Of a stretch of DNA of 56,614 bases, positions 1 through 21,948 are shown in pieces. The notes beneath the pieces are model-generated. The model did no database searches. It was not told the DNA's origin and was given only the letters and a program-made list of their open reading frames with translations. This stretch comes from a virus (taxonomy: Duplodnaviria; Caudoviricetes): IMG/VR virus record IMGVR_UViG_3300030606_000008, positions 1 to 56,614 of that record; one strand, given 5' to 3'. The position numbers and the translations under genes are program-made. Within the stretch, counting starts at the first letter, position 1; the number at the start of each line of letters is the position of its first letter.

Positions 1-652
1 TTTCTATGCCTCCGGGCGTTAAGCAGTCGTCACCGTCTCCACGGTCGTACAAGACAAGTCCGGTTCATCCGCTTTCTATGCCTCCGGGCGTTAAGCAGAT
101 AGGAGGCTGTCACTACAGACGCTGACCTCTCGGCTGTTCATCCGCTTTCTATGCCTCCGGGCGTTAAGCAGCACACGAAGGGAGCCCTCAGAAAACATCA
201 GTGGTTGAGTTCATCCGTTTTCTATGCCTCCGGGCGTTAAGCAGGAAAGCAGCCGAATCCACCGGGGCCTGTCGATCGGGTTCATCCGCTTTCTATGCCT
301 CCGGGCGTTAAGCAGGGATAGTTCGCCGCTCCGTCTCCACACGCCCCTAGGGGGTTCATCCGCTTTCTATGCCTCCGGGCGTTAAGCAGAACGAAAGTCG
401 CACCTGGAGGCCGAGGGCGTTCACGTTGTTCATCCGCTTTCTATGCCTCCGGGCGTTAAGCAGATCCGCAGGAGCTCAGAGACAGACGTGAGCTCACGAT
501 GTTCATCCGCTTTCTATGCCTCCGGGCGTTAAGCAGAGTAAGCCGTCCGTAGACCGCCAGCAGCGAACGTGTTCATCCGCTTTCTATGCCTCCGGGCGTT
601 AAGCAGGCGCCGACCAGTTCATCCGCTTTCTATGCCTCCGGGCGTTAAGCAG
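1..652 (+). CRISPR. CRISPR array, truncated by the window start; 36-bp repeat GTTCATCCGCTTTCTATGCCTCCGGGCGTTAAGCAG, 9 full + 1 partial repeats, 9 spacers
   Basis: Repeats at 1-26 (partial), 63, 136, 209 (one C>T), 280, 354, 428, 501, 571 and 617. Spacers are 36, 37, 37, 35, 38, 38, 37, 34 and 10 nt. The hairpin (A)TGCC-TCCG-GGCG(T) followed by an 8-nt 3' tag TTAAGCAG suggests + strand crRNA and Cas6-type processing. The 3' half resembles the ...GGCGTTGAGCAC repeats of Myxococcus/Leptospira I-B-type systems (recalled, not searched). Confidence 0.97.
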
Positions 653-699
653 CCTTCGGGCGTTTATCGATCGATTTCTTGAAAAAGTCTGAGGCCCTA

Positions 700-726: not shown

Positions 727-1104
727 GTGACCGAGTCAGTCCCTATCACATCAGCCTACGAGTACCTGCTTACGCAAGGGGTCCTAGGTGTTCTGTGTGT
801 CCTACTGATCTTCGCATTGGTCTGGACAGTCAAAAATCTGTTGAAGTCTAAAGACGAGCGGGTTCACGACCAGAAAAAATACACGGAGGCCTTGCACGAC
901 CTCAACGAGGCCGTTAGGGAGTTGGCTATTGAACTGAACAAGTCCAGTTCGACCATGACGCACGAGGTCCTTCGCAGTAATGACCTGACCCGAACTACAC
1001 TTGGGACCTTGGAGAAGTCGCAGGACAACGTAGCGAGGTCACTAGATAGCCTCAAAAACGAGCAAGTACGCCTGGGGGCGACATTGACCTCGAGGGGATT
1101 CTGA
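727..1104 (+). CDS. Putative holin-like membrane protein (single N-terminal TM helix plus coiled coil)
   Basis: Hydrophobic segment YLLTQGVLGVLCVLLIFALVWTV followed by a heptad-rich tail; the layout resembles BhlA/UviB-type holins. Confidence 0.5.
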   Translation: MTESVPITSAYEYLLTQGVLGVLCVLLIFALVWTVKNLLKSKDERVHDQKKYTEALHDLNEAVRELAIELNKSSSTMTHEVLRSNDLTRTTLGTLEKSQDNVARSLDSLKNEQVRLGATLTSRGF

Positions 1105-1300: not shown

Positions 1301-1993
1301 ATGCTCAGGTCCTCCCCTTCTGAGACGGAACCCAAGATGGCCAGGAAAAAACACACGCTCACCCCGTTGAGCACCCACCGCATGGACAAGACCCTCTCGG
1401 ACATATCTCCAGAAGACTTGAAGAAGGCTCGAGAGATGTTCGTACAAGCAAAAGCAGCCCTGCAAAAAAAAGAGGACTCACTAGCGCCCCCACCCTCTGG
1501 AGACGACGACGTCACGGACCGCTATAGTACGACTAGCTCGGAGGACATCAAGCGTACGGGAGAGATAGCGTCTCAGTTCATCGAGGGTTTGGACAAGATC
1601 CAAGACGTACTCTTAGTGCTGGTTCTCAAGTTCGGTCGATCAACGACAATGCTCCTAGCCGTCCTCCTGGGACTCATACCTGTGACGACCCTACTAATCT
1701 GGAATCTGACAGTAGGGTACGGCCAGCAATACGACACCAAAGAGCTGATTCGTCAGCTAGAATCGATACAACGCGAACAGCGAGGTATCCTGAGGCAGGT
1801 CAATGAGGCTGTCAGTAGGGCTACTGCCGCCGAAGCTAAGGCCAAGGAGGCCAAGGAAGCTGCTCCTAAAGTCGTCATGGACGAGGCGGGTAATGCCAAG
1901 TTGGTGGTCAAGGGAGAAGGGTCTCCTACAGACCCCCCAACGAAGAAACCACAAAAGTTGAGTAGGGAGATCCAGATAGAATTGGACTTCTAG
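1301..1993 (+). CDS. Membrane-anchored coiled-coil protein (possible lysis accessory or spanin-like)
   Basis: Central hydrophobic stretch (MLLAVLLGLIPVTTLLIWNL) followed by a coiled coil; co-oriented with the holin-like gene. Function is inferred. Confidence 0.5.
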   Translation: MLRSSPSETEPKMARKKHTLTPLSTHRMDKTLSDISPEDLKKAREMFVQAKAALQKKEDSLAPPPSGDDDVTDRYSTTSSEDIKRTGEIASQFIEGLDKIQDVLLVLVLKFGRSTTMLLAVLLGLIPVTTLLIWNLTVGYGQQYDTKELIRQLESIQREQRGILRQVNEAVSRATAAEAKAKEAKEAAPKVVMDEAGNAKLVVKGEGSPTDPPTKKPQKLSREIQIELDF

Positions 1994-2319
1994 TCCTCGA
2001 TAATCCCATCGACTACGTCCATGTCGATGATGCGGCACTTCTCCCCATCGAAGTCGAACTCCGTACCATGGTGCTTGGGGAGAATGATTTTATCCCCTGG
2101 TTTGAGACTCACCTCAGCCCTACCTCCACCTTTGAGGCGTTTACCCTTACCGACGGCAAGGACTTCAGCCGTAGTGCTGAACTTCCCGTCTTTGGCGGTC
2201 CGAGGGATGTAGAGACCCCCTTCGGACTTCTCAGGGAGGGGGTCTTCTTTGATGAGGGCTTTACCGTCTAGGGGTTTGACTTGCTCAACGCCCGGAGGCG
2301 TAGAAGGGGGGTGAGTCAT
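1990..2319 (-). CDS. groES: Co-chaperonin GroES (Cpn10) homolog with a 12-aa N-terminal extension
   Basis: Cpn10 motifs KPLDGKALIK, mobile loop EKSEGGLYIP, EVLAVGKGK, LKPGDKIILPKHHGTEFDFDGE. SD AAGGA lies 7 nt before the ATG at 2319. Confidence 0.93.
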   Translation of the reverse strand: MTHPPSTPPGVEQVKPLDGKALIKEDPLPEKSEGGLYIPRTAKDGKFSTTAEVLAVGKGKRLKGGGRAEVSLKPGDKIILPKHHGTEFDFDGEKCRIIDMDVVDGIIED

Positions 2320-2377
2320 GTGGGAATCCTTAGATTTAGGAGTGCTTAACGCCCGGAGGCATAGAAAGGCGGTCTCA
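2281..2377 (-). CRISPR. Mini-array of two degenerate CRISPR repeats flanking a 25-nt spacer-like segment that contains the groES RBS and ATG
   Basis: 2342-2377 and 2281-2316 each match the array repeat (reverse complement) at 28/36 positions ungapped; 2343-2368 is a 26-nt exact match. The hairpin and the 8-nt tag position are kept in both copies. Confidence 0.85.
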
Positions 2378-2779
2378 TAGGTACGCTAGAGCGATCGCAT
2401 TGCAAGCGACGTGCATGAGGTTGTCTGTGATAATCATCAACCAGACTGCCAGGAAAGGGGGGGTCTCTGGGTTGTAACCTGTACCCTTACACATGGCCCA
2501 GGGTTTGGGCCAACCCTTTCGGGGCGAGAGGAAATTCTTTGCCCAGCAGACATAGCGAGCGAGCCTCCAGTGGTCGATGACTACATGGGTACCGAAGATG
2601 AATGCAAGGGCTACTACAGATTGTGTGAGAAGCCCAAAAGGGATCGTGTAGACTAGCCCATGCGCTAGAGCCGGTCCCCAACTGGAGACCTTGCGTTGCG
2701 CCATCCAATCACTTTGAGTGACGTAATCCCCTACGACATGTAGTACAAGTGGGGCTAGGTCTCCAAATAGTACTGTCAT
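2375..2779 (-). CDS. DUF3307-like membrane protein
   Basis: Motifs HVVGDYVTQSDWMAQRK, LAHGLVY, THVVIDHW and DNLMH with hydrophobic helices, as recalled for DUF3307. Confidence 0.75.
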   Translation of the reverse strand: MTVLFGDLAPLVLHVVGDYVTQSDWMAQRKVSSWGPALAHGLVYTIPFGLLTQSVVALAFIFGTHVVIDHWRLARYVCWAKNFLSPRKGWPKPWAMCKGTGYNPETPPFLAVWLMIITDNLMHVACNAIALAYL

Positions 2780-2824: not shown

Positions 2825-3154
2825 GTGGATTCCTACGATGAGCGCTGGCAGCGTAACTTCGAAGCTTCCCAAAGGCGCCTAGCTCTCAAAAAACGAGCTA
2901 TCGGGCACATGGGGGGCCACTGCGCTCTCTGTACCTACGACAACCCTGTGGGACTAGCTTTCCACCATACCGACCCAGCCAGTAAGGACTTTGAGATTAG
3001 CTCGAGTATGAACTGGGACGTTGTCCGTCCTGAGCTAGAGAAGTGTGTATTGCTCTGCCACAACCACCATTCTGAAGTGCACGCTGGCTTCCACCCTGAG
3101 CTGCTGGTTCTAGACGATGCTGACAGGTGCTACGACCCTACCTGTGAGGAGTAG
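2825..3154 (+). CDS. HNH-type endonuclease (small, Zn-binding)
   Basis: CALC...LAFHHTDP...ELEKCVLLCHNHHSEVH, a typical phage HNH pattern. Confidence 0.8.
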   Translation: MDSYDERWQRNFEASQRRLALKKRAIGHMGGHCALCTYDNPVGLAFHHTDPASKDFEISSSMNWDVVRPELEKCVLLCHNHHSEVHAGFHPELLVLDDADRCYDPTCEE

Positions 3155-3402: not shown

Positions 3403-3990
3403 TCAAAAAGTATTTTGTTGCGGGGGGCTCGTCCACGGACGCTGAGATTGTATATAGGCCGAGAGGGCCTGGTACGACTGATGTGCAGCACGAAAGTCTT
3501 CGAGTCCCCCTCCCAGGTCTGGGTGGGTTTTCCGGGCAACCCGCTTCCAAGCCGTACCCAAGTCGAGTATAGTCGGAAGTGTCGTGAGCTCTAACAACTC
3601 CAAGTGAGACTTGACCAACGGCGTCAGTTGTCGTGGCCCCACAGGCTGTTTCAGGGCTCTGGGGGGCGGCCTTGGAACCACCTCTTCGAGTAATTTTATG
3701 ATCTCTTTTTTTTGTTCGAGGATACTTTGAGCTAGCGCTCGGTCTCGGAGCAAAAATTCGAACTCCACAAATCTCGAAGCTACCTCCTGCCACCAGGGTA
3801 CGAGAGCCTCTTTCGCTTTGTTGTCGATACAGCAGCGTCGAATAGCCGGCGCCAAATAACCCAGGATCCAATAGTCCCCATTTTTGTAGAATCGAAGTCG
3901 AGGTGTCAGTTTGTAGGTAGGGACCCTACACTTGCACCAACTATTCGCCCGCAAACCCAGAACTGGTTTGCGTTTCCAGTGGACGTGCAT
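3403..3990 (-). CDS. Protein with a C-terminal DnaJ-type J-domain (HPD motif)
   Basis: DLGTAWKRVARKTHPDLGGGLEDFRAAHQSYQAL fits helix II-HPD-helix III of a J-domain; G-rich SD-like AGGGGG just before the start. Confidence 0.75.
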   Translation of the reverse strand: MHVHWKRKPVLGLRANSWCKCRVPTYKLTPRLRFYKNGDYWILGYLAPAIRRCCIDNKAKEALVPWWQEVASRFVEFEFLLRDRALAQSILEQKKEIIKLLEEVVPRPPPRALKQPVGPRQLTPLVKSHLELLELTTLPTILDLGTAWKRVARKTHPDLGGGLEDFRAAHQSYQALSAYIQSQRPWTSPPQQNTF

Positions 3991-4130
3991 CACCCCCTAG
4001 GTACCCCGATTGGGACATGAAACAGGCAAATATCCCTAAAAAATATTGGGCTGTAGGGCCAAGTACGGGTTGGTGTAAATCGAAGCGTAGCGTCAGCGCG
4101 ATCAACCGAGCCAGGGCGCTCGGCAAAGAC

Positions 4131-5078
4131 ATGAGTATCTATGAGCAACAATCGCCGGAACGGTTAACACAGCCCCGCGGCAGCGAGCCGGCTAGCAGCG
4201 AGGACTGGGATCCAGACGGCTGGTCCTGCCCACGCGTACTTGGTGCGCTCTTTCCTGCCGGCAGTGCGCTCCCGTACGTACAGGCTGGGACGACTACATT
4301 TGACTTCGGAGATGGGAAGGGGCCGGTCCAGGCCCGTCGCCACAAGAACCCTGACGGAACTGAGGGTGGTTGGGTCGCTGACACTGCGACCGTCGCTGAG
4401 ACTGCTCACATAGGTCCATATGCCCGTGTCTATGGGCAAGCTAGAGTCTATGCCCAGTCCCAAGTCAGTGGCCAGGCCCGCGTCAGTGGCCAGGCCCACG
4501 TCTACGATCAGGCCCAAGTCAGTGGCGAGGCCTGGGTCTATGGCGGGGCCCAAGTCAGTGGCGAGGCCCGAGTCTTTGGCCTGGCCCAAGTCTACGATCG
4601 GGCCCACGTCTATGGCCAGGCCCACGTCTTTGGCAAGGCCTGGATCTATGGCTGGGCCCAAGTCAGTGGACAAACCTTCATCTATGACCGGGCCCAAGTC
4701 AGTGGCCGCGTCCGTGGCCAGGCCCAAGTCAGTGGCGAGGCCCGCGTCTTTGACCGGGCCCAAGTCAGTGGCGAGGCCCGAGTCTCTGGGTCGACCAGAG
4801 TCAGTGGTACTTCCAAAGTACTTGACTCTACTCTATGCCTAGGCACGTACAAAGACATCGATTGCGATCAAACACCTGATGTCATCAGTCTCAAGGGAAG
4901 CCTCGCTATTGTAGTAAAAGACCGAATCATCATTGAGGCCCGACACAAGACTTTGGAGGAGTGGGATCGGGAGCCCCCACCTGACTGGGACCGACTGCGA
5001 CCCCACGTCGCGTTGGTGCTCCCGAAACCTCCCCCGACTGAAGGGGTACACTTCCTCGATCAAGTCCTGGAACAATGA
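4131..5078 (+). CDS. Hexapeptide-repeat left-handed beta-helix protein, paralog 1 (with N-terminal extension)
   Basis: Many [AT]-x-V-[YFS]-[GD]-x hexapeptides between a TTTFDFGDG...NPDGTEGGWVADTA cap and a KTLEEWD...HFLDQVLEQ cap. Start uncertain (4017 or 4131). Confidence 0.8.
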   Translation: MSIYEQQSPERLTQPRGSEPASSEDWDPDGWSCPRVLGALFPAGSALPYVQAGTTTFDFGDGKGPVQARRHKNPDGTEGGWVADTATVAETAHIGPYARVYGQARVYAQSQVSGQARVSGQAHVYDQAQVSGEAWVYGGAQVSGEARVFGLAQVYDRAHVYGQAHVFGKAWIYGWAQVSGQTFIYDRAQVSGRVRGQAQVSGEARVFDRAQVSGEARVSGSTRVSGTSKVLDSTLCLGTYKDIDCDQTPDVISLKGSLAIVVKDRIIIEARHKTLEEWDREPPPDWDRLRPHVALVLPKPPPTEGVHFLDQVLEQ

Positions 5079-5905
5079 CGACGACTACATTTGACTTCGG
5101 AGACGGACCGGTACCGGCCCGTCGTCATCGCAATCCAGACGGAACTGAGGGTGGTTGGGTAGCTGACACTGCAACTGTCTCTAAAACCGTTCAGGTCAGT
5201 CCAGATGCTCGGGTTTTTGGCGCGGCCCAGGTCTGTCATATGGCCATAGTCTGTGACCATGCCCACGTTTCTGACCGGGCTGACGTCTGGGGGCAGGCCT
5301 ACGTCGGTGGCTTTGCCTGCGTCTATGGGGATGCCAGAGTTGGTGGCCTGGCCCGAGTTAGTGACCATGCTCGAGTCTGGGGTCATGCCGCTATTTCTGG
5401 TCAGGCTCAAGTTTACGGCCATGCCGAAGTCAGGGGAGAAGCCAAAATCTATGACGGGGCCAACGTCTTTGGCGAGGCCCAAGTTTATGGTGTGACCCGA
5501 GTCTTTGGCGAGGCCCGAGTCAGGGGCTTTGCTCAAGTCTTTGGACAGACTGAAGTCTATGGTCAGGCTCAAGTTTACGGCCAATCTAAAATTTACGGAC
5601 AAGCCCGAATCTATGACTGCACCATAGTAAGAGGTACTTCCCAAATATCTGACGTGTCTCTGCATACAGGTATTTATCACGGTATCCACTGCGGTCATTC
5701 ACCAAATGTCATTACTTTCAATGGAAATACGGCTATCGTAGTAGAAGACCAAGTCATCATTGGAGAGCAGCACAAGACGCTGAGAGAGTGGGATCAAAAC
5801 CCCCCAGCTAATTGGGACCAACTACGACCCATTGTCGTGTTGATGCTCCCGAAACCTCCCCCGACTGAAGGGGTGCACTACCTCGACCAAGTTTTAGAAC
5901 AATGA
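5075..5905 (+). CDS. Hexapeptide-repeat beta-helix protein, paralog 2
   Basis: ATGA overlap with paralog 1; same N- and C-terminal caps. Confidence 0.88.
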   Translation: MTTTTFDFGDGPVPARRHRNPDGTEGGWVADTATVSKTVQVSPDARVFGAAQVCHMAIVCDHAHVSDRADVWGQAYVGGFACVYGDARVGGLARVSDHARVWGHAAISGQAQVYGHAEVRGEAKIYDGANVFGEAQVYGVTRVFGEARVRGFAQVFGQTEVYGQAQVYGQSKIYGQARIYDCTIVRGTSQISDVSLHTGIYHGIHCGHSPNVITFNGNTAIVVEDQVIIGEQHKTLREWDQNPPANWDQLRPIVVLMLPKPPPTEGVHYLDQVLEQ

Positions 5906-6560
5906 CGACGACTACGTTTGACTTCAAGGACGGGAAGGGGCCGGTCCCGGCCCGTCGCCACCGCAATCCAGACGGAACTGAGGGTGGTTGGGTGGCTGAC
6001 ACGGCAACCGTCGCTGAGACGGTTCATGTTGGTTCGGATGCTCGAGTCTATGACCAGGCCCACGTTTTTGATCAGGCCGAAGTCTATGACCATGCCCAAA
6101 TTTATGGCGAGGCCCGCGTCCATGGCCAGGCCTGGGTCTATGGCGAGGCTCGAATCTGTGGGGATGCTCGAATCTGTGGGGATGCTCGAATCTATGGCCA
6201 GGCCCGTGTCGACGGTGAGGCCCAAGTTTATGGCTGGGCTCGAGTCTTTGGCCAGGCCGAAGTCAGTGGTAATACCAAAATTTTTGACATGGCCTTTATT
6301 GGATACTCTTTGGGTACTATGAAGGTGTCCTGATCACGGAAGATCCTAAATTAGTCTATGTCTCTAGACATGTGGGTGCAGCGATTGTGGGTAGTCAAGT
6401 CATTATTGAAAAAGAACGCAAGACCCTGGAGGAGTGGGATCGGGAGCCCCCACCTAACTGGGACCAACTACGACAGCACGTAGTACTAATGCTCCCGAAA
6501 CATCTAGTCGAGGGAGCCCATTACTTAGATCAACTCATGGAATTCAGTGACCATGTTTGA
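5902..6560 (+). pseudogene. Hexapeptide-repeat beta-helix protein, paralog 3, frameshifted near 6290-6305
   Basis: The frame from 5902 stops at 6333. The -1 frame reads WILFGYYEGVLITEDPKLVYVSRHVGA...HYLDQLMEF, collinear with paralog 4 (WVHFGHYRDVLITEDPKLIYISRHVMA). Confidence 0.8.
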
Positions 6561-7224
6561 CTTCAAGGATGGAGACGGGTCGGTCCCGGCCCGTCTCCAC
6601 AAAAATCCAGACGGAACTGAAGGTGGTTGGATAGCTGACACTGCTCATGTCTCTAAGGCTGCTCACATTGGTCCAGATGCCCAAGTCTATGGTCAGGCTA
6701 AAGTTAGTGGTCATGCCCGAGTTCTGGGCCAGGCCCAAATCTATGATGGGGCTAACATCTATGACTCTGTCCTAGTCCGTGACCAGGCCCACGTCTATGG
6801 GGAGACCCACGTTTATGACCAGGCTCTAATTTATGGGGAGGCTAGAGTATATGATGAGGCCAGAATCTATGGTGGGGCCCTTGTCTATGGGGCGGCCCAC
6901 GTCTGTAATCAAGCCCGAATTTTTGGTAGTTCACGTATTTGTGGGACTACCAAAGTGGAGGCAGGTTGGGTGCATTTTGGACACTATCGGGATGTTCTGA
7001 TTACCGAAGACCCTAAGTTAATTTACATCTCTAGACATGTGATGGCCACGGTTGTGGGTAGTCAAGTCATCATTAAAGAAGAGCCTAAGACTTTGCTAGA
7101 ATGGGATTGTAAGCCTCCTGATGGGTGGGAGCAACTACGTCCTCTTCTGGAGATACTAATCCCCAAGGCCGCACTTACACCAAGTACCCATTACCTCGAC
7201 CAGTTGTTAGACGATGGTTCTTAG
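6547..7224 (+). CDS. Hexapeptide-repeat beta-helix protein, paralog 4
   Basis: FDFKDGDG...NPDGTEGGWIADTA cap, hexapeptide repeats, and KTLLEWD...HYLDQLLDD cap. Confidence 0.88.
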   Translation: MTMFDFKDGDGSVPARLHKNPDGTEGGWIADTAHVSKAAHIGPDAQVYGQAKVSGHARVLGQAQIYDGANIYDSVLVRDQAHVYGETHVYDQALIYGEARVYDEARIYGGALVYGAAHVCNQARIFGSSRICGTTKVEAGWVHFGHYRDVLITEDPKLIYISRHVMATVVGSQVIIKEEPKTLLEWDCKPPDGWEQLRPLLEILIPKAALTPSTHYLDQLLDDGS

Positions 7225-9810: not shown

Positions 9811-9913
9811 GAGATGAAGATGCAGACTCAGATGAATATCCTGACGAGAGGTCTCGCACCCTCGTAGACTCTCTTTGGTCCGTCTTCATCTCCAGGTTGG
9901 AGATGAAACAGTG
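9811..9913 (+). promoter_or_regulatory. Structured 5' leader with alternative helices controlling SD access for the downstream gene
   Basis: The 9881-9894 segment can pair either with 9811-9822 (12 bp, one G.U) or with 9898-9907, which contains the GGAG SD (10 bp). Confidence 0.55.
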
Positions 9914-11020
9914 ACGACTCTACAAGTAGAACAGCTCAAGTCGGTCCTCGAGAGGGCTAAAAATACGGGTATTTGCGAGGAGGCGGTCACCGTCTCCGGT
10001 CTATCCTTAGTGGTCAGGAGCCTCCCTCCTGAAGCGTACAATGACATTTACGCTGAATTGGAGGCGTGCGCTGAAGGGTCAGAGTACATGCACGGTCATC
10101 AGATTGAGCACGTATGTAGGGCTATTTGCGAGATTGAGGGGGAAGACCTCAGGGACGTAGAGTACATCGAAGTCGAAAAGGAAAATCCGGATACCCACGA
10201 ATTGGAGATGGTCAAAGTCCCACGGCATGAGTGGCTGAAGGACAATCTCATGGCGACTTGGAGTCGGGAGGTCATACACACCCTCTACCGCAAGTTCATG
10301 GATGCTGTGAACCAGGCAACCGAGGAAGCTACGAAGGGGATTGTTTTTCGAGTCGAGACGGAGACGGCGGAGGAGAAGTTTCGCCGTTTGTTGGGGGAAG
10401 CTGTCCTAGCGGGAGACGACATCCCAGACGACATGCGAGAGGCTATTCTCAAGGAGCACGACCTTTTGTCAGCCACGAGTGAGGAGGAATTGGCTAAGTT
10501 CAACGAAGATGCCAAGAAGTTTTTGGCAGAGCAGCGGACAAAGATGGGTTTGGACGAGAGGGAAGCCCCTAAAACGACACCGGCCCCGCCCCCTTCAGAG
10601 CCCCCTCCAAGTACAGTCCCCATAGAGGATCTGATGGCTTCGAGGACACCTATGAACCAGGAGGCGGTTCAAGAGCGAACTCCCATCACTCCGGAAACGA
10701 GGGTTGAAGTAGCAAACAAGCGCCCCCCACTTCCGGCGGGGATAGAGGTGGTTGACTTGGGTAAAAAAGGGGCTGAACGAGCGGCTCAATTTGCGGCTTT
10801 GGAGGAGGCAGCGGCTTCAGATGGCTTGGCTCTAGACGAAGGGGTTTCTCCCAATCAGGTCTACCAGATACATCAAGGGGGTCACGTCCTCGAGAAGCGG
10901 ACTCAGCAGGGGGTGAAGTCCCCGCTGGTCATAGACAAGAAGCCTACCGGAGGTATCAACAAGAAGTACAATCCCCCTAGTGGAGGCGGTCTGGACCCTA
11001 GGTCTCACAAAGGCCGCTGA
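9911..11020 (+). CDS. Putative tail assembly chaperone 1
   Basis: Acidic protein between the tube and tape-measure genes, with VTVSGLSLVVRSL near the N-terminus. GTG 9911 has SD GGAG 8 nt upstream (the ORF track starts at TTG 9875). Confidence 0.55.
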   Translation: MTTLQVEQLKSVLERAKNTGICEEAVTVSGLSLVVRSLPPEAYNDIYAELEACAEGSEYMHGHQIEHVCRAICEIEGEDLRDVEYIEVEKENPDTHELEMVKVPRHEWLKDNLMATWSREVIHTLYRKFMDAVNQATEEATKGIVFRVETETAEEKFRRLLGEAVLAGDDIPDDMREAILKEHDLLSATSEEELAKFNEDAKKFLAEQRTKMGLDEREAPKTTPAPPPSEPPPSTVPIEDLMASRTPMNQEAVQERTPITPETRVEVANKRPPLPAGIEVVDLGKKGAERAAQFAALEEAAASDGLALDEGVSPNQVYQIHQGGHVLEKRTQQGVKSPLVIDKKPTGGINKKYNPPSGGGLDPRSHKGR

Positions 11021-16519: not shown

Positions 16520-18557
16520 CCCTAGGAACAGAAACCCCGTGGGCTCGGGGATCCTCTCACAGATAGAGAAGACGTCGGACTACCACCCTCCGGGGAGGTA
16601 TTCTCTGGGAGGGGGATGGGACCCCAGTTTCTTGACTTTCTTCAAGGACCTGAGTGTCACGGCAGACCCTCAAACGGGGGGTTTCATTCCTCTGTCAGGG
16701 GCTGGGAAAAATCCTAAGAGGTTTGTGGTCGGGGTCTTACCCCCTATCCAAAACATCACGGGGAGAGTCCTAGACCGCTCTCAGACGGCTTCATTGATAG
16801 CCAACCCAGAAAACCCTTTCGAGAACTTGTCGGTCCCTACCTCCACACCAGAGGGTGTCGTAACCGCTCCAGGTTATCAGATGGCTACTGTGGAGGCGTC
16901 GGGGAGTTTTCGGTCAGCCCCAGACCCTGGTAATGATGCCTCCCTGTGTAATGACGGAGAACTAGCGTGGACTAACATCGATGGGAAAATGGTTGCCAAT
17001 GGTAAGGTAGATTCTAGAGGGGTACCTACTTCAGTTTGTTCACGTAGTTATTCCCCTGCCCAAGTCTACAGAGCTTTGGGGGAGGCCTATGTCAGGGTAC
17101 ATGGGGTAGAGCCTACTCCGGTCGAGCTGCAGTTCTACACAGCTCAATGCCTCCGAGAGACTTCTGGATTCCTTCAAAGTAACAACTTTGGTCAGATTGG
17201 AAATAGGGCAGAGCCTAATAGTTGCCCAGAATGTCTTCGAGAAACAAAGCCCTGTAGTTGCTCGGAGTATGCGGTCGAGTACTCTCATCGGGGGGGGACC
17301 CTCGTTCGGTATTTCAATTCCTATGCAACGTTGGAGGAGGGGTCTGATGCCTATGTGAGGCTCATTACGAAGCGTAACCCCAACGTGCGGGAGTCGGCTC
17401 GGAATGGGGACGCCCTAGGCTACGTTACGTCTCTAGCACAACAAGGCTATTTTCAGGAGCCCGTCTCAGTCTACTACCGGAACATGCCCAGGTACTTGGA
17501 CCGCGTGGCAAAGGACACGTCTAAGTACGGTATCAACCTTCCTTCCTCGAAGAGTATCCCCAATGAGGCTCCAGACGTGCCTGGGTTTGAGGAGGGCGTC
17601 CTCGACTATCAGGCTAGGGTAAAGGACTTGGGTCTTTCTGGGGAGGCGGCCTTGTTTCGCTTCAATGAAGGATCCCCCTATGGGGAAGGGGCCCTCCCTA
17701 CGAATAACCAGCCGGTATCTACGGACTCGACGTGGAAAGCTTCAGGGAGCAAAGCAGCTAAGGAAGCTACTAAGGACTTAGAAAAGAAGGCAGATACGGA
17801 CGTAGTATTTACTGAGGAGGGCGGGCGACTGATCGCGGCTCAAGTGGATCAGGCTCGTAAGGCCCAAGCTGTCTTGAAGGCGATGGCCAGCACTCCTCCT
17901 TTGAGACTACTCGTCAATCCCAACAAGTTCTCGGTCAAGTCTCAGAAGATCGTCTCGGATGGGAATTGGACTCGGAACGGGCCGGTCATCGAGTTTTGGG
18001 GGGATGACCAGGATAAAATTAGTGGATCGGGACAGGTCGCAGCTTTCTACTCGGTGAAAACCAACCCTACTTTGGGGGAGGGTGGTCCAGGTCTTTCTAG
18101 AGCCGCGCGTAACCACAGTCAGGCTTGGCAGAACATCCAGTCCCTGTGGCTTCTCTACAAGAACAACGGGGCTCTCTACCTGCAAAACCTCAGCCAGGAG
18201 GAGCGCGACTACGTCTTATCGACGGTGGGGAGCATCTATATCCTCTATGACAACATCTTGTACATCGGGAGCTTCGACAGTTTCAACTTGAGCGAGACAG
18301 ACACCAAACCGTTTACGGCTGAGTACAGCTTCGAGTTCACGGTTCGAGCAGCTTTCATGCTGGAGTTCCCCAACGACTTCAACTACGGGGCTCCAGTGAC
18401 ACTCACAGAGCGTAGGGCCGCGATCCCAGTTGAGCGCTCGACCTATGACCGAGAGAGTGGGGGGGCCGTGGGACTTCCTGGGGCCGTGAGTCTTCCCCCA
18501 GAGAATCGGTCGACTGGGACTTCGGCTAGTCAGCAGGAAAGCGCGTCCGATGGCTAG
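16512..18557 (+). CDS. Baseplate protein with a central GH73/glucosaminidase-like peptidoglycan hydrolase domain and a C-terminal domain paralogous to 15884-16519
   Basis: AQCLRETSG..NNFGQIG..YFNSYATLEEGSDAYVRLI..YVTSLAQQGYFQEP resembles FlgJ/GH73. The C-terminal LLVNPNKF..EFWGDDQDKISGSG..YIGSFDSFNLSETDTKPF aligns with the upstream gene. Confidence 0.6.
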   Translation: MSDPRNRNPVGSGILSQIEKTSDYHPPGRYSLGGGWDPSFLTFFKDLSVTADPQTGGFIPLSGAGKNPKRFVVGVLPPIQNITGRVLDRSQTASLIANPENPFENLSVPTSTPEGVVTAPGYQMATVEASGSFRSAPDPGNDASLCNDGELAWTNIDGKMVANGKVDSRGVPTSVCSRSYSPAQVYRALGEAYVRVHGVEPTPVELQFYTAQCLRETSGFLQSNNFGQIGNRAEPNSCPECLRETKPCSCSEYAVEYSHRGGTLVRYFNSYATLEEGSDAYVRLITKRNPNVRESARNGDALGYVTSLAQQGYFQEPVSVYYRNMPRYLDRVAKDTSKYGINLPSSKSIPNEAPDVPGFEEGVLDYQARVKDLGLSGEAALFRFNEGSPYGEGALPTNNQPVSTDSTWKASGSKAAKEATKDLEKKADTDVVFTEEGGRLIAAQVDQARKAQAVLKAMASTPPLRLLVNPNKFSVKSQKIVSDGNWTRNGPVIEFWGDDQDKISGSGQVAAFYSVKTNPTLGEGGPGLSRAARNHSQAWQNIQSLWLLYKNNGALYLQNLSQEERDYVLSTVGSIYILYDNILYIGSFDSFNLSETDTKPFTAEYSFEFTVRAAFMLEFPNDFNYGAPVTLTERRAAIPVERSTYDRESGGAVGLPGAVSLPPENRSTGTSASQQESASDG

Positions 18558-21500
18558 AGGACCTTTTCAAGGGACGTGGAAAGCCGGGGTACGGCCCACT
18601 GTCGTGACCGCGCCCGATGCCATTGTCTATATCAATGGTCAGCCGGACATGATTACCTGTGGGAATTGCAAACGACGGTTCGACATCAACAAGTACATCA
18701 CGAGTGTGCAGGTTGACTTGAATGTCGACAATGCTCCTGGGACAGCCAACATCAATCTCAGTATCCCGAGGCATACCATCGACGACTTCATGTTTGAGGG
18801 GGAAGCCATCGTAGTCCCGATGATGGAAGTAGAGGTCTTCGCCAAAGGTTACTACCTGGTAGAGGGTCTCCCCCAGTACTATCCCATTTTTTGGGGGTTG
18901 GTAACAGAAACGAGCGACAGCTATTCTGGAGGGGAGCATACTTTCAGCATCAACTGTGCCGACATTCTAAAGTGGTGGGAGTTGTGTCGCATGAACGTCA
19001 ACCCGGCCTACGAACAACCTGCAGGTCAGCTGGGGAAGAATTACACCACGGGAAATGTTTTTCATGGGGCCAACGTCTACGACGTCATCTGGACGTTAGC
19101 TCAACAGGCATTTGGAGACGTAATTCACGCTACGGGGTCTCTCACTAGTTTGATCAAAGAGAAACAGCAGAGGGACACGTTTGCTAGAGCTCTCTCGGAC
19201 ATGATGGGCTATTGGAGCCAACGCTTTGGTCAGGTTCGGTCCAACCTCTTACTTTACGGGACTAGAGGTACGGCCGTTCGGGGAGACGTCCTCTATGAGT
19301 CACTACCGACGAAGGGGGGACGAGGAATAGCAAACTACGCCTCTGCCGCGGTTCGGAAGGCGAATGGTGGGGACAACGGGAGCCAACTCCTGTTCAGTCC
19401 CGACTCGGTCACACCTTTTCGGTCCGACATCGCCAATGCGGCTCAACCCAACTTTTGGCAGAGTACGTTTCAGACTAAACTAGAAGTAGCCAACATTTGC
19501 AAAGAGGCCGTAGGGTTCGAGTTCTTCATGGACGTCACGGGAGACATCGTATTCAAGCCCCCGTTTTACAACCTGGACGTCCTCTCGAACAAGCCCGTTT
19601 CTTGGATTCAAGACATCGATATAATAGACTGGGATTTTTCGGAGTCCGAAGCCGAAGTAGTTACCCACCTTCAGATACAGGGTTCTTATGAAGGTGGGGC
19701 GATGGACATGGGCATCACTGCTGACTACAATACCCCCTATACTCAAGTCATAGACTACCATTTGTTGAGGAAGTATGGGTGGCGGCCAGAGACTTACAAC
19801 GCCGAGTACCTCAACGACCCCTACGCTATGTTTTGGGTGGGGGTAGACGTCTTGGATAGGATGAATGCCCGGAGGCATCGAGCAACGGTCAACATCCCGT
19901 TGAGGCCGGAGTTGAGGTTGGGTTTTCCAATCTACGTCGCCCCCAAAGACCAGATCTGGTACATCCAGGGTATCAGCCACAACATCCAATTTGGAGGGAG
20001 AGCTCAGACGACGCTGACTTTGACAGCCAAACGTAACAAGTTCATAGCTCCCAGGGGGATTGGGAGCTTAGAGTTGGTTGGGTACAAGACCCCTGCTGAA
20101 GAAAAGGGCAAGGAGCAGAGTGAGCAAGTCCAGACGAAACCCAACAAGCCCTCGACGAAGCAGCTGAGTCAGACGGGTACGTTCAAGGTGAAGATCGGGG
20201 ACGCAGCAGAGATTCCTCGACGGGTGCTCTCCAATGAGGTGACGAACGACCCCTACGCCCCACTAGTCCTGCGCCACCCAAAAACTGGGCGTGTCGTGGG
20301 TTACCCCAATGTCGTCATGGCTTACCTGAGACCCTACCAGCCAACTAAGGCAGAGGCCAAAAAAGCTTTGGGTCAATCCGTTTCGGGGAAGCGGGGGGGT
20401 AAGAAGATTCGAAAGAGGGAGGGGAAGGAAGCCGACGAGCAAAATTTGGGTAAAATTTTGGAGGGGTACACACAGAATACTGAACGAGACCTAGTAGACA
20501 AGCACCTCAGCAACCGCTACACCTTCGGATTGACTTCGGCGGGGTCGTACACGTACGTCCACGACTCTTCGGACGTAATCCAAGAGCTAGTTATCATCGA
20601 AGCGTCCAAGATTGAATTAGAGGGGGAGAGTGCCTCGAAGAGGTTGGGCAAGACTACGGTCATTCGACCGGTTTCGGACGAGCGGGGTTTCGAGCTCGTA
20701 GGTCAATTCCGCTACGGGAGGGGGGTAGCCTTGAGGGATGGGTCGCTGGTCTTGACAGAGGGAGACGGCCTCAACGCGAGAGCTGCAGTGAGTACCCAGT
20801 TAGCCCTATCCGGGGGTCTCTACGAGTCCCTCACGGCACAGTCGGCGGGAGTTACGACAGCCGTCGACAAGGCGGCTAATCCCGCTGACTCTTTGATGAG
20901 AATGCAGCCAGAAGACCTTCAGACTGCGGGTACCATCAACCCTGAGACGAGGTCCCCCGAGTTCTCCACGACCAAACCCAACTTTGTCGACGTAGCTCCT
21001 CTTGGGTCGGTTGAAAACCAAGGGGTCGCCGTCAATGTGGAAGCCTCACAGCTCTCTCGTGCTTTGACGTTGACTGAGATGCGGGTAAAGGACGGTCTCG
21101 ACACGGATGTGGACGCCCTCTGTAACTGCCTTCTAGGGAGGTCGGACCTGGCCTTCATCAACGTCGGGTATCAGGTGAAGTTCCTGACAGGGACTGCCCC
21201 TGACAACACGACGGGGGGGTCTACGTCGACTGGGACGGGGTCTCCCCGATCAGCGGAGCTAGAACGCCTCTGGGCCCAACTAGACACCATCACCGAGGAG
21301 CTGGGAACTACTTCCACCTTACGAGAGTTTAGTGAGGAGTACAGGGAGGTGAGCGCCAAGATAGCGGCCTTAGAGCAGGAGTTTTACTCGGAGTCTGAGC
21401 TGGGGGCTCCCGTATCAGCAGCGACGTTCGCCCCTTCCGCTTCCACTATCTCGAACCGAGTAGAGTACTTTCTCGCGGACTTGTACGCGGCCTTGGACAC

Positions 21501-21948
21501 CCCCCACCAAGAGTTGGAAAAGGCTATTCGAGGAGGCTTTCTGCCTATCACGAGTCGAGAGGAGGCTTTGGGTGAACCCGGGGCCACCCCTCCCAGAAGT
21601 CCACTATCTCCCCCATTTTCAGCCATTGGAAGAGCTCAGGGAGGGGACCCGGCTGCTCTAGCTCTACAGGGGTCTCAGGCCTTGAACGGCATGGCTGAAG
21701 CTTGGCAGGAATTCGGGGAAAGTCTTCAGAAGAATCCCAAGCGCGCAGCCCTCGAGGGTGAGATCGAGCGCCTGGAGAAGAACATCCTGGACTTGAACGC
21801 AGAGGAGCTGCGTCTAGACCAGGGGAACAACATACAAGGGATCCCCGACCCCTCGGAGAGACTCCGCACTCTACGCGAGAACCGGACGAAGTTGGAGCGA
21901 GACCTGGCGAACGTCAAAGGCCGCTTGAACAAGCTGAACAATGGCTAA
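18550..21948 (+). CDS. Baseplate hub protein (gp27/gpD-like) with long C-terminal extension
   Basis: DINKYITSVQVDLNVDNAPGTANINL; FEFFMDVTGDIVFKPPFY; LLRKYGWR; ATVNIPLRPELRLGFPI..WYIQGISHNI..TTLTLT. C-terminal coiled coil. Confidence 0.7.
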   Translation: MARGPFQGTWKAGVRPTVVTAPDAIVYINGQPDMITCGNCKRRFDINKYITSVQVDLNVDNAPGTANINLSIPRHTIDDFMFEGEAIVVPMMEVEVFAKGYYLVEGLPQYYPIFWGLVTETSDSYSGGEHTFSINCADILKWWELCRMNVNPAYEQPAGQLGKNYTTGNVFHGANVYDVIWTLAQQAFGDVIHATGSLTSLIKEKQQRDTFARALSDMMGYWSQRFGQVRSNLLLYGTRGTAVRGDVLYESLPTKGGRGIANYASAAVRKANGGDNGSQLLFSPDSVTPFRSDIANAAQPNFWQSTFQTKLEVANICKEAVGFEFFMDVTGDIVFKPPFYNLDVLSNKPVSWIQDIDIIDWDFSESEAEVVTHLQIQGSYEGGAMDMGITADYNTPYTQVIDYHLLRKYGWRPETYNAEYLNDPYAMFWVGVDVLDRMNARRHRATVNIPLRPELRLGFPIYVAPKDQIWYIQGISHNIQFGGRAQTTLTLTAKRNKFIAPRGIGSLELVGYKTPAEEKGKEQSEQVQTKPNKPSTKQLSQTGTFKVKIGDAAEIPRRVLSNEVTNDPYAPLVLRHPKTGRVVGYPNVVMAYLRPYQPTKAEAKKALGQSVSGKRGGKKIRKREGKEADEQNLGKILEGYTQNTERDLVDKHLSNRYTFGLTSAGSYTYVHDSSDVIQELVIIEASKIELEGESASKRLGKTTVIRPVSDERGFELVGQFRYGRGVALRDGSLVLTEGDGLNARAAVSTQLALSGGLYESLTAQSAGVTTAVDKAANPADSLMRMQPEDLQTAGTINPETRSPEFSTTKPNFVDVAPLGSVENQGVAVNVEASQLSRALTLTEMRVKDGLDTDVDALCNCLLGRSDLAFINVGYQVKFLTGTAPDNTTGGSTSTGTGSPRSAELERLWAQLDTITEELGTTSTLREFSEEYREVSAKIAALEQEFYSESELGAPVSAATFAPSASTISNRVEYFLADLYAALDTPHQELEKAIRGGFLPITSREEALGEPGATPPRSPLSPPFSAIGRAQGGDPAALALQGSQALNGMAEAWQEFGESLQKNPKRAALEGEIERLEKNILDLNAEELRLDQGNNIQGIPDPSERLRTLRENRTKLERDLANVKGRLNKLNNG

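What the first reader, a model, noticed from the sequence alone, without database searches (positions are those of the whole stretch)
2281..2377. Two CRISPR-repeat copies bracket the RBS and start codon of phage groES, and one encodes the GroES N-terminus: possible Cas6-controlled mRNA or crRNA-like regulator
Seen: the minus strand reads TGAGACCGCCTTTCTATGCCTCCGGGCGTTAAGCAC - TCCTAAATCTAAGGATTCCCACATG - ACTCACCCCCCTTCTACGCCTCCGGGCGTTGAGCAA. Both 36-mers match the array repeat at 28/36, with most mismatches in the 5' third. The hairpin is kept, and in the second copy a U.G pair becomes C-G, which suggests selection on structure. Repeat 1 begins exactly at the stop codon of the DUF3307-like gene. 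The 25-nt 'spacer' carries the SD (AAGGA) and ends with the ATG. Repeat 2 is read in frame as THPPSTPPGVEQ, an extension ahead of the usual GroES 'KPL' start. Known: Cas6 cuts 3' of such hairpins leaving an 8-nt tag, and degenerate two-repeat units give regulatory crRNA-like RNAs (CreA/CreR) or RNA anti-CRISPRs (Racr). Inference: Cas6 would excise a ~61-nt RNA holding the whole translation-initiation region. That would switch off the co-chaperonin and release a short-guide crRNA mimic, coupling CRISPR RNA processing to a protein-folding factor. I know of no described case with this architecture. Alternatives are an antisense anti-repeat RNA or a neutral relic of a mini-array.
Basis: partly seen in the sequence, partly recalled or inferred. 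Interest (0 to 1): 0.92.

Follow-up and report, generated by a model that had tools for sequence, protein, structure and literature searches.

The report
CRISPR mini-array straddling phage groES start
A fragment of a very large soil phage carries two decayed copies of its own CRISPR repeat on either side of the ribosome-binding site and start codon of its co-chaperonin gene; the arrangement is real and unusual, but sequence alone cannot say whether it makes a guide-like RNA, a decoy or a gene switch, or is only a relic.

Summary
On the minus strand, two copies of the window's 36-nt CRISPR repeat (R1 2342-2377, R2 2281-2316; 28/36 each) bracket 25 nt that carry the AAGGA and ATG of a Cpn10/GroES gene. 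R2 is translated as a 12-residue N-terminal extension that 4 of 4 relatives lack. Contigs from 4 of 4 soil DNA runs (2 studies) bridge the site without a difference.

New here:
- The repeat belongs to the type I-MYXAN family (Cas6/Cmx6).
- Both copies lie in crRNA sense on the groES mRNA strand.
- Both keep all 15 family-invariant positions.
- R1 is really a 5'-truncated 26-nt repeat.
- The 'structure-saving' U.G to C-G change is one-sided and weak evidence.
- No Cmx6 gene is in the window, which is about 12% of a huge phage.
- No host, target or RNA data were found.

Best reading (0.45): a Cas6-processed crRNA-like mini-array embedded in an mRNA, akin to viral crlRNAs (Cracr) and RNA anti-CRISPRs. 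Cutting would also sever groES from its start region.

Main rival (0.35): a tolerated relic.

The scan noted comparable repeat-in-mRNA layouts in other soil phages, with other repeat types, but not this sequence. This is a new variant of a known kind, and its function is untested.

The parts
1..652 (+). Phage-borne CRISPR array. It has 10 repeats of 36 nt (the first cut by the contig end) and spacers of 34-38 nt, plus a last spacer of only 10 nt. The crRNA sense is the + strand.
   Evidence: Orientation is inferred from cas-operon-to-array order in L001 and L014.
653..666 (+). Partial repeat-like remnant directly after the last repeat, at the degenerate trailer end.
   Evidence: Read: about 12 of 14 letters match repeat positions 20-33 by my own count by eye. 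Not scored by a tool.
2375..2779 (-). DUF3307 membrane-protein gene. Its stop codon TGA (2377-2375) overlaps the nominal start of R1. The gene is complete to its family-typical C-terminus.
   Evidence: PF11750, E 5.1e-8; phrog_6676, E 2.1e-46, residues 10-134 on profile 10-131 of 131; alignments reach residue 134 in 25 of 25 listed rows.
2342..2377 (-). R1, a repeat-like copy. Only about 2342-2367 (the 3' 26 nt: hairpin plus 8-nt tail) is homologous, at 25/26. The 5' 10 nt match at chance level.
   Evidence: (33.7 bits, E 4.8e-7).
2317..2341 (-). 25-nt 'spacer'. It is the translation-initiation region of groES, with AAGGA at 2331-2327 and ATG at 2319-2317.
2281..2316 (-). R2, a repeat-like copy read in frame as THPPSTPPGVEQ. 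It keeps the hairpin (C17-G28) and a tail that matches the family consensus at position 31.
   Evidence: (35.6 bits, E 1.4e-7).
2289..2349 (-). Predicted 61-nt crRNA-like product if a Cas6 cuts 8 nt before each repeat end (2350|2349 and 2289|2288).
   Evidence: Inference from repeat anatomy and general type I Cas6 behaviour (recalled). Not tested.
1990..2319 (-). groES (Cpn10) gene of 109 aa. Residues 2-13 are the repeat-encoded extension.
19864..19879 (-). Possible third, hairpin-only remnant (U17-A28), antisense inside the + strand gene 18550-21948. It may be chance.
   Evidence: 16.2 bits, E 0.03. As a full-length match at 23/36 it is not significant: 23 of 200 shuffles give such a site.

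Best explanation
R1-25 nt-R2 is a two-repeat, short-guide CRISPR mini-array of the type I-MYXAN repeat family. It is embedded in the DUF3307-groES messenger of a huge soil phage.

Inferred mechanism:
- In a cell that holds a cognate Cas6 (Cmx6), from the host or from the unseen 88% of the phage, the enzyme binds the two conserved hairpins. It cuts 8 nt before each repeat end.
- This releases a 61-nt crRNA-like RNA: an 8-nt 5' handle from R1, a 25-nt guide, and the 5' part and hairpin of R2.
- That RNA takes up Cas6, Cas5 and Cas7 subunits as a short-guide complex. This is the way viral crlRNAs (Cracr), CreA/CreR and RNA anti-CRISPRs work: as a decoy, a re-programmer, or a guide against close relatives that lack the flanking repeats.
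- The same two cuts remove the SD and AUG from the groES reading frame. GroES output would then fall as Cas6 activity rises.

Shown: the anatomy, family membership, orientation and integrity of the units. Inferred: processing, loading and any effect.
For: - Real homology, not chance.
- The family is I-MYXAN. Of 16 stretches that share the hairpin core, 12 are arrays of 36-nt repeats ending in GTTGAGCAC or GTTGCTCAA. Two of these were examined. They lie beside Cas6/Cmx6, Cas8a1/Cmx1, DevR and DevS (L014) or Cas4-Cas1 and Cas2 (L001).
- Sense orientation. In L001 and L014 the array follows the cas operon on the same strand, and L014 has an AT-rich leader and a degenerate far end. In that sense the window's array is + and R1/R2 are -, the strand of DUF3307 and groES.
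- Both copies keep 15 of 15 family-invariant columns. Their mismatches cluster in the 5' part: 11 of 16 fall in the first 10 nt, P 1e-4. On the most conservative count (R2 alone, last 25 nt) P is 0.05.
- Both hairpins form in the minimum-energy and centroid folds of the 171-nt context. R2 alone folds at -10.6 kcal/mol, z -2.2.
- R2 position 31 (G) restores the family's outer C14-G31 pair, which the phage's own array lacks.
- A 25-nt guide against canonical 34-38 nt parallels the shortened guides of known regulatory crlRNAs: I-F CreA/CreR 23-27 nt and viral Cracr 17-21 nt against 32 nt (section read).
- Viral crlRNAs, SRUs and mini-arrays are established phage tools.
- The phage carries a full array of the same family, so it meets cells with that Cas machinery.
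Against: - There is only one genome. 4 of 4 GroES relatives (52-60% identity) lack the extension, and the one seen as DNA (L017) has no repeat. Conservation is therefore untestable and the unit is lineage-specific.
- Degenerate trailer repeats of a natural array (L014) score 35.9 and 30.7 bits, the same range as R1 and R2. The scores fit plain decay as well.
- No base pair shows a change on both sides (0 of 8).
- The 5'-biased mismatch pattern is largely explained by R1 being truncated.
- All five four-fold-degenerate third positions in R2's hairpin codons equal the repeat (read). At this divergence that is expected about one time in three (my arithmetic), so it is weak.
- The 171-nt region as a whole folds no better than shuffles (z -0.35).
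- Cutting an apparently useful chaperone mRNA looks costly for the phage.
- A decoy role sits oddly with a phage that also carries a working-looking array.
Confidence: 0.45

Rival explanations
1. Neutral relic. A rearrangement or illegitimate recombination with the phage's own array, 1.6 kb away and inverted, or with a host array, left two repeat fragments around the groES start. A 36-nt in-frame insertion at a disordered N-terminus is tolerated, and nothing reads the repeats.
For: - The extension is absent from 4 of 4 relatives and equals exactly one repeat length (12 codons).
- Two of the three frames of the repeat are open (read).
- Residues 1-12 have pLDDT below 50 in a low-confidence model with mean pLDDT 66.
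- R1 is truncated.
- R1 and R2 score like the natural degenerate trailer repeats.
- There is no covariation and no target.
- The array itself shows rearrangement: a 10-nt spacer, a partial repeat at 653-666, and another version of the array in run X1.
Against: - It needs the SD and ATG to sit exactly between two repeat fragments, both in mRNA sense.
- All 15 invariant family positions survive in both copies, while R2 differs from the array at 8 other positions.
- If the phage infects Cmx6-bearing cells, as its array implies, intact hairpins in a useful mRNA should be selected against. Silent escape changes are available.
Confidence: 0.35
2. A dedicated gene switch or processing site. The selected function would be Cas6-dependent control of GroES. 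Either both cuts shut the gene off, or a cut at R1 alone frees a defined, stable monocistronic groES mRNA from the DUF3307 cistron. The released small RNA would be incidental. The Cas6 may be the phage's own.
For: - The placement is precise. The R1 tail ends 22 nt before the AUG, R2 starts at codon 2, and its hairpin lies at about +19 to +32.
- AAGGA is one of the clearer SD-like sites among the 36 starts listed.
- The record is about 12% complete, so a phage Cas6 cannot be excluded.
- Engineered Cas6-based translational control exists (PMC13478208, seen only in the listing).
Against: - No Cas6 is in the window.
- There is no second gene with such a unit. The filter-off model search finds only R1, R2 and one marginal hairpin.
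- I found no natural precedent.
- Relatives regulate groES without it.
Confidence: 0.12
3. Antisense anti-repeat. Transcription on the + strand, running out of the array and the three + genes (727-1993) into 2281-2377, would make RNA complementary to the repeats. That RNA could pair with pre-crRNA and block or redirect its processing.
For: The + genes and groES converge and overlap by 4 nt, sharing CTAG stops. R1's complement would pair with 25 consecutive nt of every array repeat.
Against: Terminator-like sites on the + strand lie before the unit, at 2224-2245. Nothing shows + transcription here. No such mechanism is known for type I systems (recalled).
Confidence: 0.03
4. Chance similarity or an assembly artefact.
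For: None found.
Against: E about 1e-7; contigs of 4 of 4 runs from 2 studies bridge the unit with 0 differences.
Confidence: 0.01

Closest known systems
Viral crRNA-like regulatory RNAs (Cracr) and their cellular models CreA/CreR (preprint 10.1101/2024.10.29.618823; abstract and sections 7 and 11 read)
   Same: Two degenerate repeats flank a shortened guide. The unit is encoded by a phage outside any cas locus. It is expected to load host Cas proteins without canonical interference.
   Different: Known Cracrs were found by similarity to host CreA/CreR and match cas or creT promoters. Here no host and no target are known. The subtype (I-MYXAN) is not among those listed there (V-A, I-F, I-E, I-C, I-B). 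The unit is not a separate small gene: its guide is a translation start region and its second repeat is coding.
RNA anti-CRISPRs (Racr) / solitary repeat units (PMC10651486; abstract and found passages read)
   Same: Phage-borne repeat mimics that keep the Cas6-binding hairpin. RacrIF1 is bound and cut by Cas6f and traps Cas proteins in aberrant complexes.
   Different: Racrs are solitary and intergenic. The published SRU search masks ORFs and drops candidates with a partial copy within 100 bp, so it would not have reported a unit like this one. Here there are two copies 61 nt apart, and one lies inside a gene.
Virus-borne mini-CRISPR arrays (PMC6858448, listing only; review PMC11656645, passages read)
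   Same: A repeat-spacer-repeat unit in a virus that relies on host Cas proteins. The spacers of such arrays mostly target related viruses, which would fit a guide made of the phage's own sequence.
   Different: Those arrays have canonical spacers and repeats identical to the host's (review passage). Here the repeats are degenerate, the guide is short, and the unit overlaps a gene start.
Engineered Cas6/Csy4 RNA-processing and translational-control devices (PMC13478208, listing only; earlier Csy4 insulator work recalled)
   Same: A Cas6 hairpin next to a ribosome-binding site sets the mRNA 5' end or blocks translation.
   Different: Those are synthetic. I found no natural example.
Degenerate trailer-end repeats of ordinary CRISPR arrays
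   Same: Similar model scores: L014's last two repeats score 35.9 and 30.7 bits, against 35.6 and 33.7 for R2 and R1.
   Different: Trailer repeats sit at the array end with normal spacing. These lie 1.6 kb away, inverted, 61 nt apart and inside an mRNA.

Membership tests
Type I-MYXAN CRISPR repeat family | 36-nt unit with a 3'-proximal hairpin (GCC-UCCG-GGC core) and a GUU-N-AGCA-N tail | tested here: met
   15 of 15 invariant columns are kept in R1 and R2. Model scores are 33.7 and 35.6 bits.
Type I-MYXAN CRISPR repeat family | Regular array spacing with spacers of canonical length | tested here: not met
   The R1-to-R2 period is 61 nt, against 70-74 nt between full units of the array. The guide is 25 nt, against 34-38 nt.
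Type I-MYXAN CRISPR repeat family | Cognate cas genes (Cas6/Cmx6 and others) in the same genome | tested here: inconclusive
   No Cmx6 match in the window at E up to 1. The record is about 12% complete, and the other cas families were not searched six-frame.
Viral crlRNA (Cracr) | Two degenerate repeats around a shortened guide, in a virus, outside a cas locus | tested here: met
   criterion taken.
Viral crlRNA (Cracr) | Guide with at least 9 PAM-proximal matches to a host CreA/CreR target (cas or creT promoter) | tested here: inconclusive
   The best seed match in the window and in loci L001-L017 is 10 of 12, at unrelated places. The host is unknown: 0 of 3 genomes and 0 of 401 genomes in each of three phylum samples hold the repeat.
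Viral crlRNA (Cracr) | Expressed and Cas-processed as a small RNA | not testable with these tools
   No sigma-70-like promoter lies before R1 (consensus scan only).
Racr / solitary repeat unit | Solitary and intergenic | tested here: not met
   There are two copies 61 nt apart, and R2 lies inside the groES ORF. The criterion is from the SRUFinder passage.
Racr / solitary repeat unit | Inhibits the cognate CRISPR-Cas system | not testable with these tools
   Needs an experiment.
Virus-borne mini-CRISPR array | Repeats identical to host repeats, and a canonical spacer that matches related viruses | tested here: not met
   28/36 identity to the phage's own array. The guide is 25 nt. No match in relatives L017-L020. 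The host repeat is unknown.
GroES / Cpn10 (PF00166) | Pfam score over the gathering cut-off across the whole domain | tested here: met
   66.4 bits against a cut-off of 21.1, residues 14-103 on profile 2-89 of 93. The predicted mobile-loop region 29-45 has low confidence, as a flexible GroES mobile loop (recalled) might.

The most novel reading that the evidence does not exclude
The huge phage, or its host, uses a Cas6 endoribonuclease as a post-transcriptional regulator of a phage chaperone gene. One stretch of RNA would then be three things at once: the translation start of groES, part of the protein, and a guide RNA. CRISPR RNA processing would directly set GroES output and emit a short-guide RNA built from the phage's own sequence. 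That guide would mark relatives lacking the flanking repeats for host Cascade. Together with the repeat-before-start-codon layouts that the scan noted in other soil phages, this would point to a general use of CRISPR repeats as cis-regulatory elements in phage mRNAs.
Probability: 0.12. Interest if true: 0.85.

Novelty: new variant of a known kind. Interest (0 to 1): 0.58.

Why it matters
Phage-borne repeat mimics (Racr, Cracr, mini-arrays) are a recent and fast-growing class of counter-defence RNAs. All described examples are separate small genes. The published SRU screen read here masks coding sequence and drops paired copies, so it could not have reported units like this one. If this unit is read by Cas6, a messenger's start region can double as a guide RNA, and CRISPR RNA processing can be wired to the expression of an ordinary phage gene. 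It would also give a simple, testable substrate for the little-studied I-MYXAN Cas6 (Cmx6). If it is a relic, it still records recombination between a phage's array and its genes, with a CRISPR repeat translated into protein.

Tried and rejected
- Close relatives. None were found in the phage collection by DNA or by GroES tblastn. None were found in IMG/VR by GroES, by ORF 9875-11020, by the repeat core or by paired hairpin cores.
- Exact repeat in genomes. The 22-nt core with Y/R gave 0 hits in genome contigs.
- Distant relatives. A 1199-aa protein found three at 30-32% identity. Two of them could be searched whole, and they hold neither a GroES nor a significant repeat. They are 10-18% fragments, so this says little.
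- DUF3307. The protein is common in actinophages (131 records). It informs neither on the host nor on the unit.
- Host hunt. The 26-nt 3' part of the repeat, at up to 3 mismatches, was not found in 3 I-MYXAN genomes. It was not found in 401 sampled genomes of each of their three phyla. This means 'not found in those searched', not 'absent'.
- Targets. The 25-mer, a 36-mer version and the eight full-length array spacers (the 10-nt one was left out) have only short chance matches (12 nt or less, or 16 nt or less with a mismatch; E 0.27 or more) in the rest of the window and in loci L001-L022.
- Solitary repeats near cas genes. The model search of 9 loci found only the arrays.
- RNA evidence. No RNA holder was listed, so expression and cut sites could not be examined.
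- Promoter scan. No site lies before R1. The scan covers the sigma-70 consensus only, and the host is unknown.
- Covariation. No pair changes on both sides. This is uninformative, because the core was fixed by the search pattern.
- Tandem duplication. I considered a 61-nt duplication as the origin. By my own count, the 25 nt after R1 and after R2 match at only 7/25.
- Split spacer. I considered a spacer split by an inversion (10 + 25 = 35 nt). I rejected it because both short pieces have repeats on both sides.
- J domain. Pfam finds no J domain in ORF 3403-3993 even at E up to 1. The HPD motif there is seen by eye only.
- Supplements. They were closed. Tables S1-S3 of the Cracr preprint and the SRU lists of the Racr paper might hold I-MYXAN or gene-overlapping cases that I could not see.
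- Not used.
Full report
**What is there**

The window is a linear virus record with a CheckV completeness estimate of 12%, so it is probably a piece of a very large phage. Recognisable phage genes include a baseplate hub / tail lysozyme, an HNH endonuclease and a DUF3307 membrane protein of a phage family.

Its left end is a CRISPR array on the + strand (1-652). The array has ten 36-nt repeats, the first cut by the contig end. It has eight spacers of 34-38 nt and a last spacer of only 10 nt.

About 1.6 kb further on, the minus strand carries the 97 nt of the finding: R1 (2377-2342), 25 nt (2341-2317) and R2 (2316-2281).

**Check of the observation**

- The 22-nt repeat core occurs only in the array and at these two places (0 and 2 mismatches). 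No match was expected in 100 shuffles.
- Each copy matches the repeat at 28/36.
- A covariance model built from ten I-MYXAN repeats, without R1 or R2, was run over the whole window with filters off. It scores R2 at 35.6 bits and R1 at 33.7 bits (E about 1e-7). It scores 39.7 bits for the array repeat, which was one of its training rows. Apart from one marginal hairpin at 19864-19879 (16.2 bits, E 0.03), it finds nothing convincing: all other hits have E of 0.12 or more.
- The DUF3307 ORF ends with TGA at 2377-2375. It is complete to the family's usual C-terminus.
- The 25 nt hold AAGGA and end with the ATG of a 109-aa Cpn10/GroES (E 2.4e-18). The domain begins at residue 14. That ATG is the first start codon after the upstream in-frame stop.
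- R2 therefore encodes residues 2-13, THPPSTPPGVEQ.
- Contigs from four DNA runs of two soil samples and two studies each bridge the unit without a single difference. They differ elsewhere in the 4 kb at 12 places. One of the samples may be the window's source. The other is independent, so this is not a misassembly.

**Corrections to the description**

- R1 matches the repeat at only 3 of its first 10 positions, which is chance level, and at 25 of the last 26. It is a 5'-truncated repeat, so its 'start at the stop codon' has no meaning.
- R2 matches 6 of its first 11 positions (P 0.03). The guide is thus 25 nt if R2 is whole and up to 36 nt if it is truncated too.
- The U.G to C-G change in R2 keeps the pair, but it is a change on one side. 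The same C occurs in a natural repeat (L002). Across 12 sequences no pair has a change on both sides. It is compatible with the structure but does not demonstrate selection.

**What family**

A scan of one genome per prokaryotic species for two hairpin cores at array spacing returned 16 stretches. Twelve of them are arrays of 36-nt repeats ending in GTTGAGCAC or GTTGCTCAA. They come from Planctomycetota, several Myxococcota, a Microcystaceae cyanobacterium and others.

Next to two of them lie Cas6/Cmx6, Cas8a1/Cmx1, Cas7/DevR and Cas5/DevS (L014), or a Cas4-Cas1 fusion of the MYXAN type and Cas2 (L001). The repeat therefore belongs to the type I-MYXAN variant of type I-B.

In both loci the array follows the cas operon on the same strand. 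L014 has an AT-rich leader of about 250 nt, and its repeats decay away from it. In that sense the hairpin sits near the 3' end of the repeat, followed by a tail of 7-8 nt. This is the layout that type I Cas6 enzymes use to leave an 8-nt 5' handle (general knowledge, recalled).

In this sense the window's array is + and R1 and R2 are -, the strand of DUF3307 and groES. The messenger would carry both units as Cas6 substrates, not as their complements.

**Signs of constraint**

- The ten-repeat family alignment has 15 invariant columns (18-30, 34, 35). R1 and R2 keep all 15.
- If the 8 mismatches of a copy fell at random, none would hit those columns with P 0.007.
- On the most conservative reading (R2's last 25 nt only, 3 mismatches) P is 0.05. 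For R1 it is 0.44.
- At position 31, R2 has the family's G rather than the A of the phage's own array. This restores the outer C14-G31 pair.
- Both inner hairpins appear in the minimum-energy and centroid folds of the 171-nt context.

Against this:
- The two degenerate trailer repeats of the natural L014 array score 35.9 and 30.7 bits, like R1 and R2.
- The region as a whole folds no better than shuffles (z -0.35).
- The five silent third positions in R2's hairpin codons all equal the repeat. At this divergence that would happen about one time in three, by my arithmetic.

**Relatives**

The nearest GroES proteins (three at 52-60% identity, and one metagenome locus at 56%) start MTEKIRPL, MIRPL or MNVRPI. 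4 of 4 lack the extension.

The one available as DNA has a plain AGGAG-type start region, a different upstream gene and no model hit. The unit is therefore specific to this lineage. Its length in the protein is exactly one repeat (12 codons).

AlphaFold gives pLDDT below 50 for residues 1-12. The model has low confidence overall, with a mean of 66 from four aligned sequences. This is consistent with a tolerated, disordered tail.

**What it most likely does**

Three bodies of published work frame it:
- RNA anti-CRISPRs are phage-borne solitary repeats that Cas6f binds and cuts, and that trap Cas proteins (PMC10651486, passages read).
- Viral crRNA-like RNAs (Cracr) are two degenerate repeats around a shortened guide. 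They re-programme host Cas complexes. In I-F systems viral guides are 17-21 nt and cellular CreA/CreR guides 23-27 nt, against the canonical 32 nt (preprint 10.1101/2024.10.29.618823, sections 7 and 11).
- Viral mini-arrays mostly carry spacers against related viruses (PMC11656645, passage).

The present unit has the Cracr anatomy: two degenerate repeats, and 25 nt against 34-38 nt. I therefore take as most likely (0.45) that a cognate Cmx6 cuts at 2350|2349 and 2289|2288 and frees a 61-nt crRNA-like RNA that occupies Cas subunits. Every step after the anatomy is inference.

A consequence that cannot be avoided, if the cuts occur, is that the groES frame loses its SD and AUG. As a dedicated switch I give it 0.12.

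Because the guide is the phage's own start region, a further possibility is that it marks close relatives without the flanking repeats. An agent of this scan proposed the same logic for Cas12m repeats in another soil phage (e1-6095080). I could not test it.

**Main rival**

The main rival (0.35) is a relic of recombination with an array, tolerated because it is in frame and sits at a disordered N-terminus.

It is favoured by:
- the lack of any conservation data;
- the truncation of R1;
- scores typical of decaying repeats;
- visible instability of the array. The array has a 10-nt spacer and a partial repeat after the last unit. In run X1 a contig carries 391 other letters in place of the 78 letters skipped between 538 and 617.

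It is disfavoured by:
- the exact bracketing of a working start region;
- the shared mRNA-sense orientation;
- the intact invariant positions.

**What could not be settled**

- No Cmx6 is in the window, but 88% of the genome is unseen.
- No host was found.
- No target of the 25-mer or of the array spacers was found.
- No sigma-70-like promoter lies before R1.
- The paper supplements were closed.

**Novelty**

Searches for natural Cas6 sites at translation starts, or for repeat units overlapping gene starts, found nothing. These cover open-access text only.

The published SRU screen masks ORFs and discards candidates with a partial copy within 100 bp. Units like this one would have been filtered out of it.

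The scan's own notes list comparable layouts in other soil phages: repeats just before start codons, and a gene tail encoded by repeat-spacer-repeat. Those involve other repeat types and are unchecked by me. I file this as a new variant of a known kind, real in sequence and untested in function.

Noticed in passing
window 537-666: The array's trailer end is irregular. The last spacer is only 10 nt (607-616), and a 14-nt partial repeat follows the last repeat (653-666). In run X1 a 5.6-kb contig carries 391 other letters between 538 and 617, in place of the 78 it skips. The array content therefore differs within the population.
   Followed up: partly
window 19858-19893 (-): A third, hairpin-only repeat-like site, with U-A in place of the U.G pair, lies antisense inside the large + strand gene 18550-21948. 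The model gives 16.2 bits, E 0.03. As a 23/36 match it is not significant (23 of 200 shuffles).
   Followed up: partly
window 3403-3993 (-): An ORF upstream on the groES strand carries a J-domain-like 'KTHPDLGG' motif, seen by eye. With GroES that would make a small chaperone cluster. Pfam and PHROGs give no hit, even at Pfam E up to 1.
   Followed up: partly
window 2825-3154 (+): An HNH endonuclease gene (phrog_2255, E 6.8e-22) sits on the opposite strand, between the minus-strand J-like ORF and the DUF3307-groES pair. It looks like a homing-type insertion.
   Followed up: no
window 1990-1993: groES (-) and the 230-aa ORF 1301-1993 (+) converge and overlap by 4 nt, sharing CTAG so that each strand reads TAG. 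No strong terminator lies between them, so antisense read-through is possible.
   Followed up: no
window 4017-7224 (+): Four consecutive paralogous beta-solenoid genes (YdcK repeat, bactofilin-like) are built of 18-nt units.
   Followed up: no
window 53462-56614 (+): Glycine-rich repetitive genes with long GGT/GGC runs and a 235-nt repeat (55079-55313 and 56380-56614, 87% identity) lie at the right contig end. This probably explains why the assembly stops there.
   Followed up: no
window 727-1104 (+): The small membrane-protein ORF directly after the array has weak holin and bacteriocin-immunity-like hits (Holin_BhlA E 0.0011, phrog_2429 E 4.2e-5).
   Followed up: no
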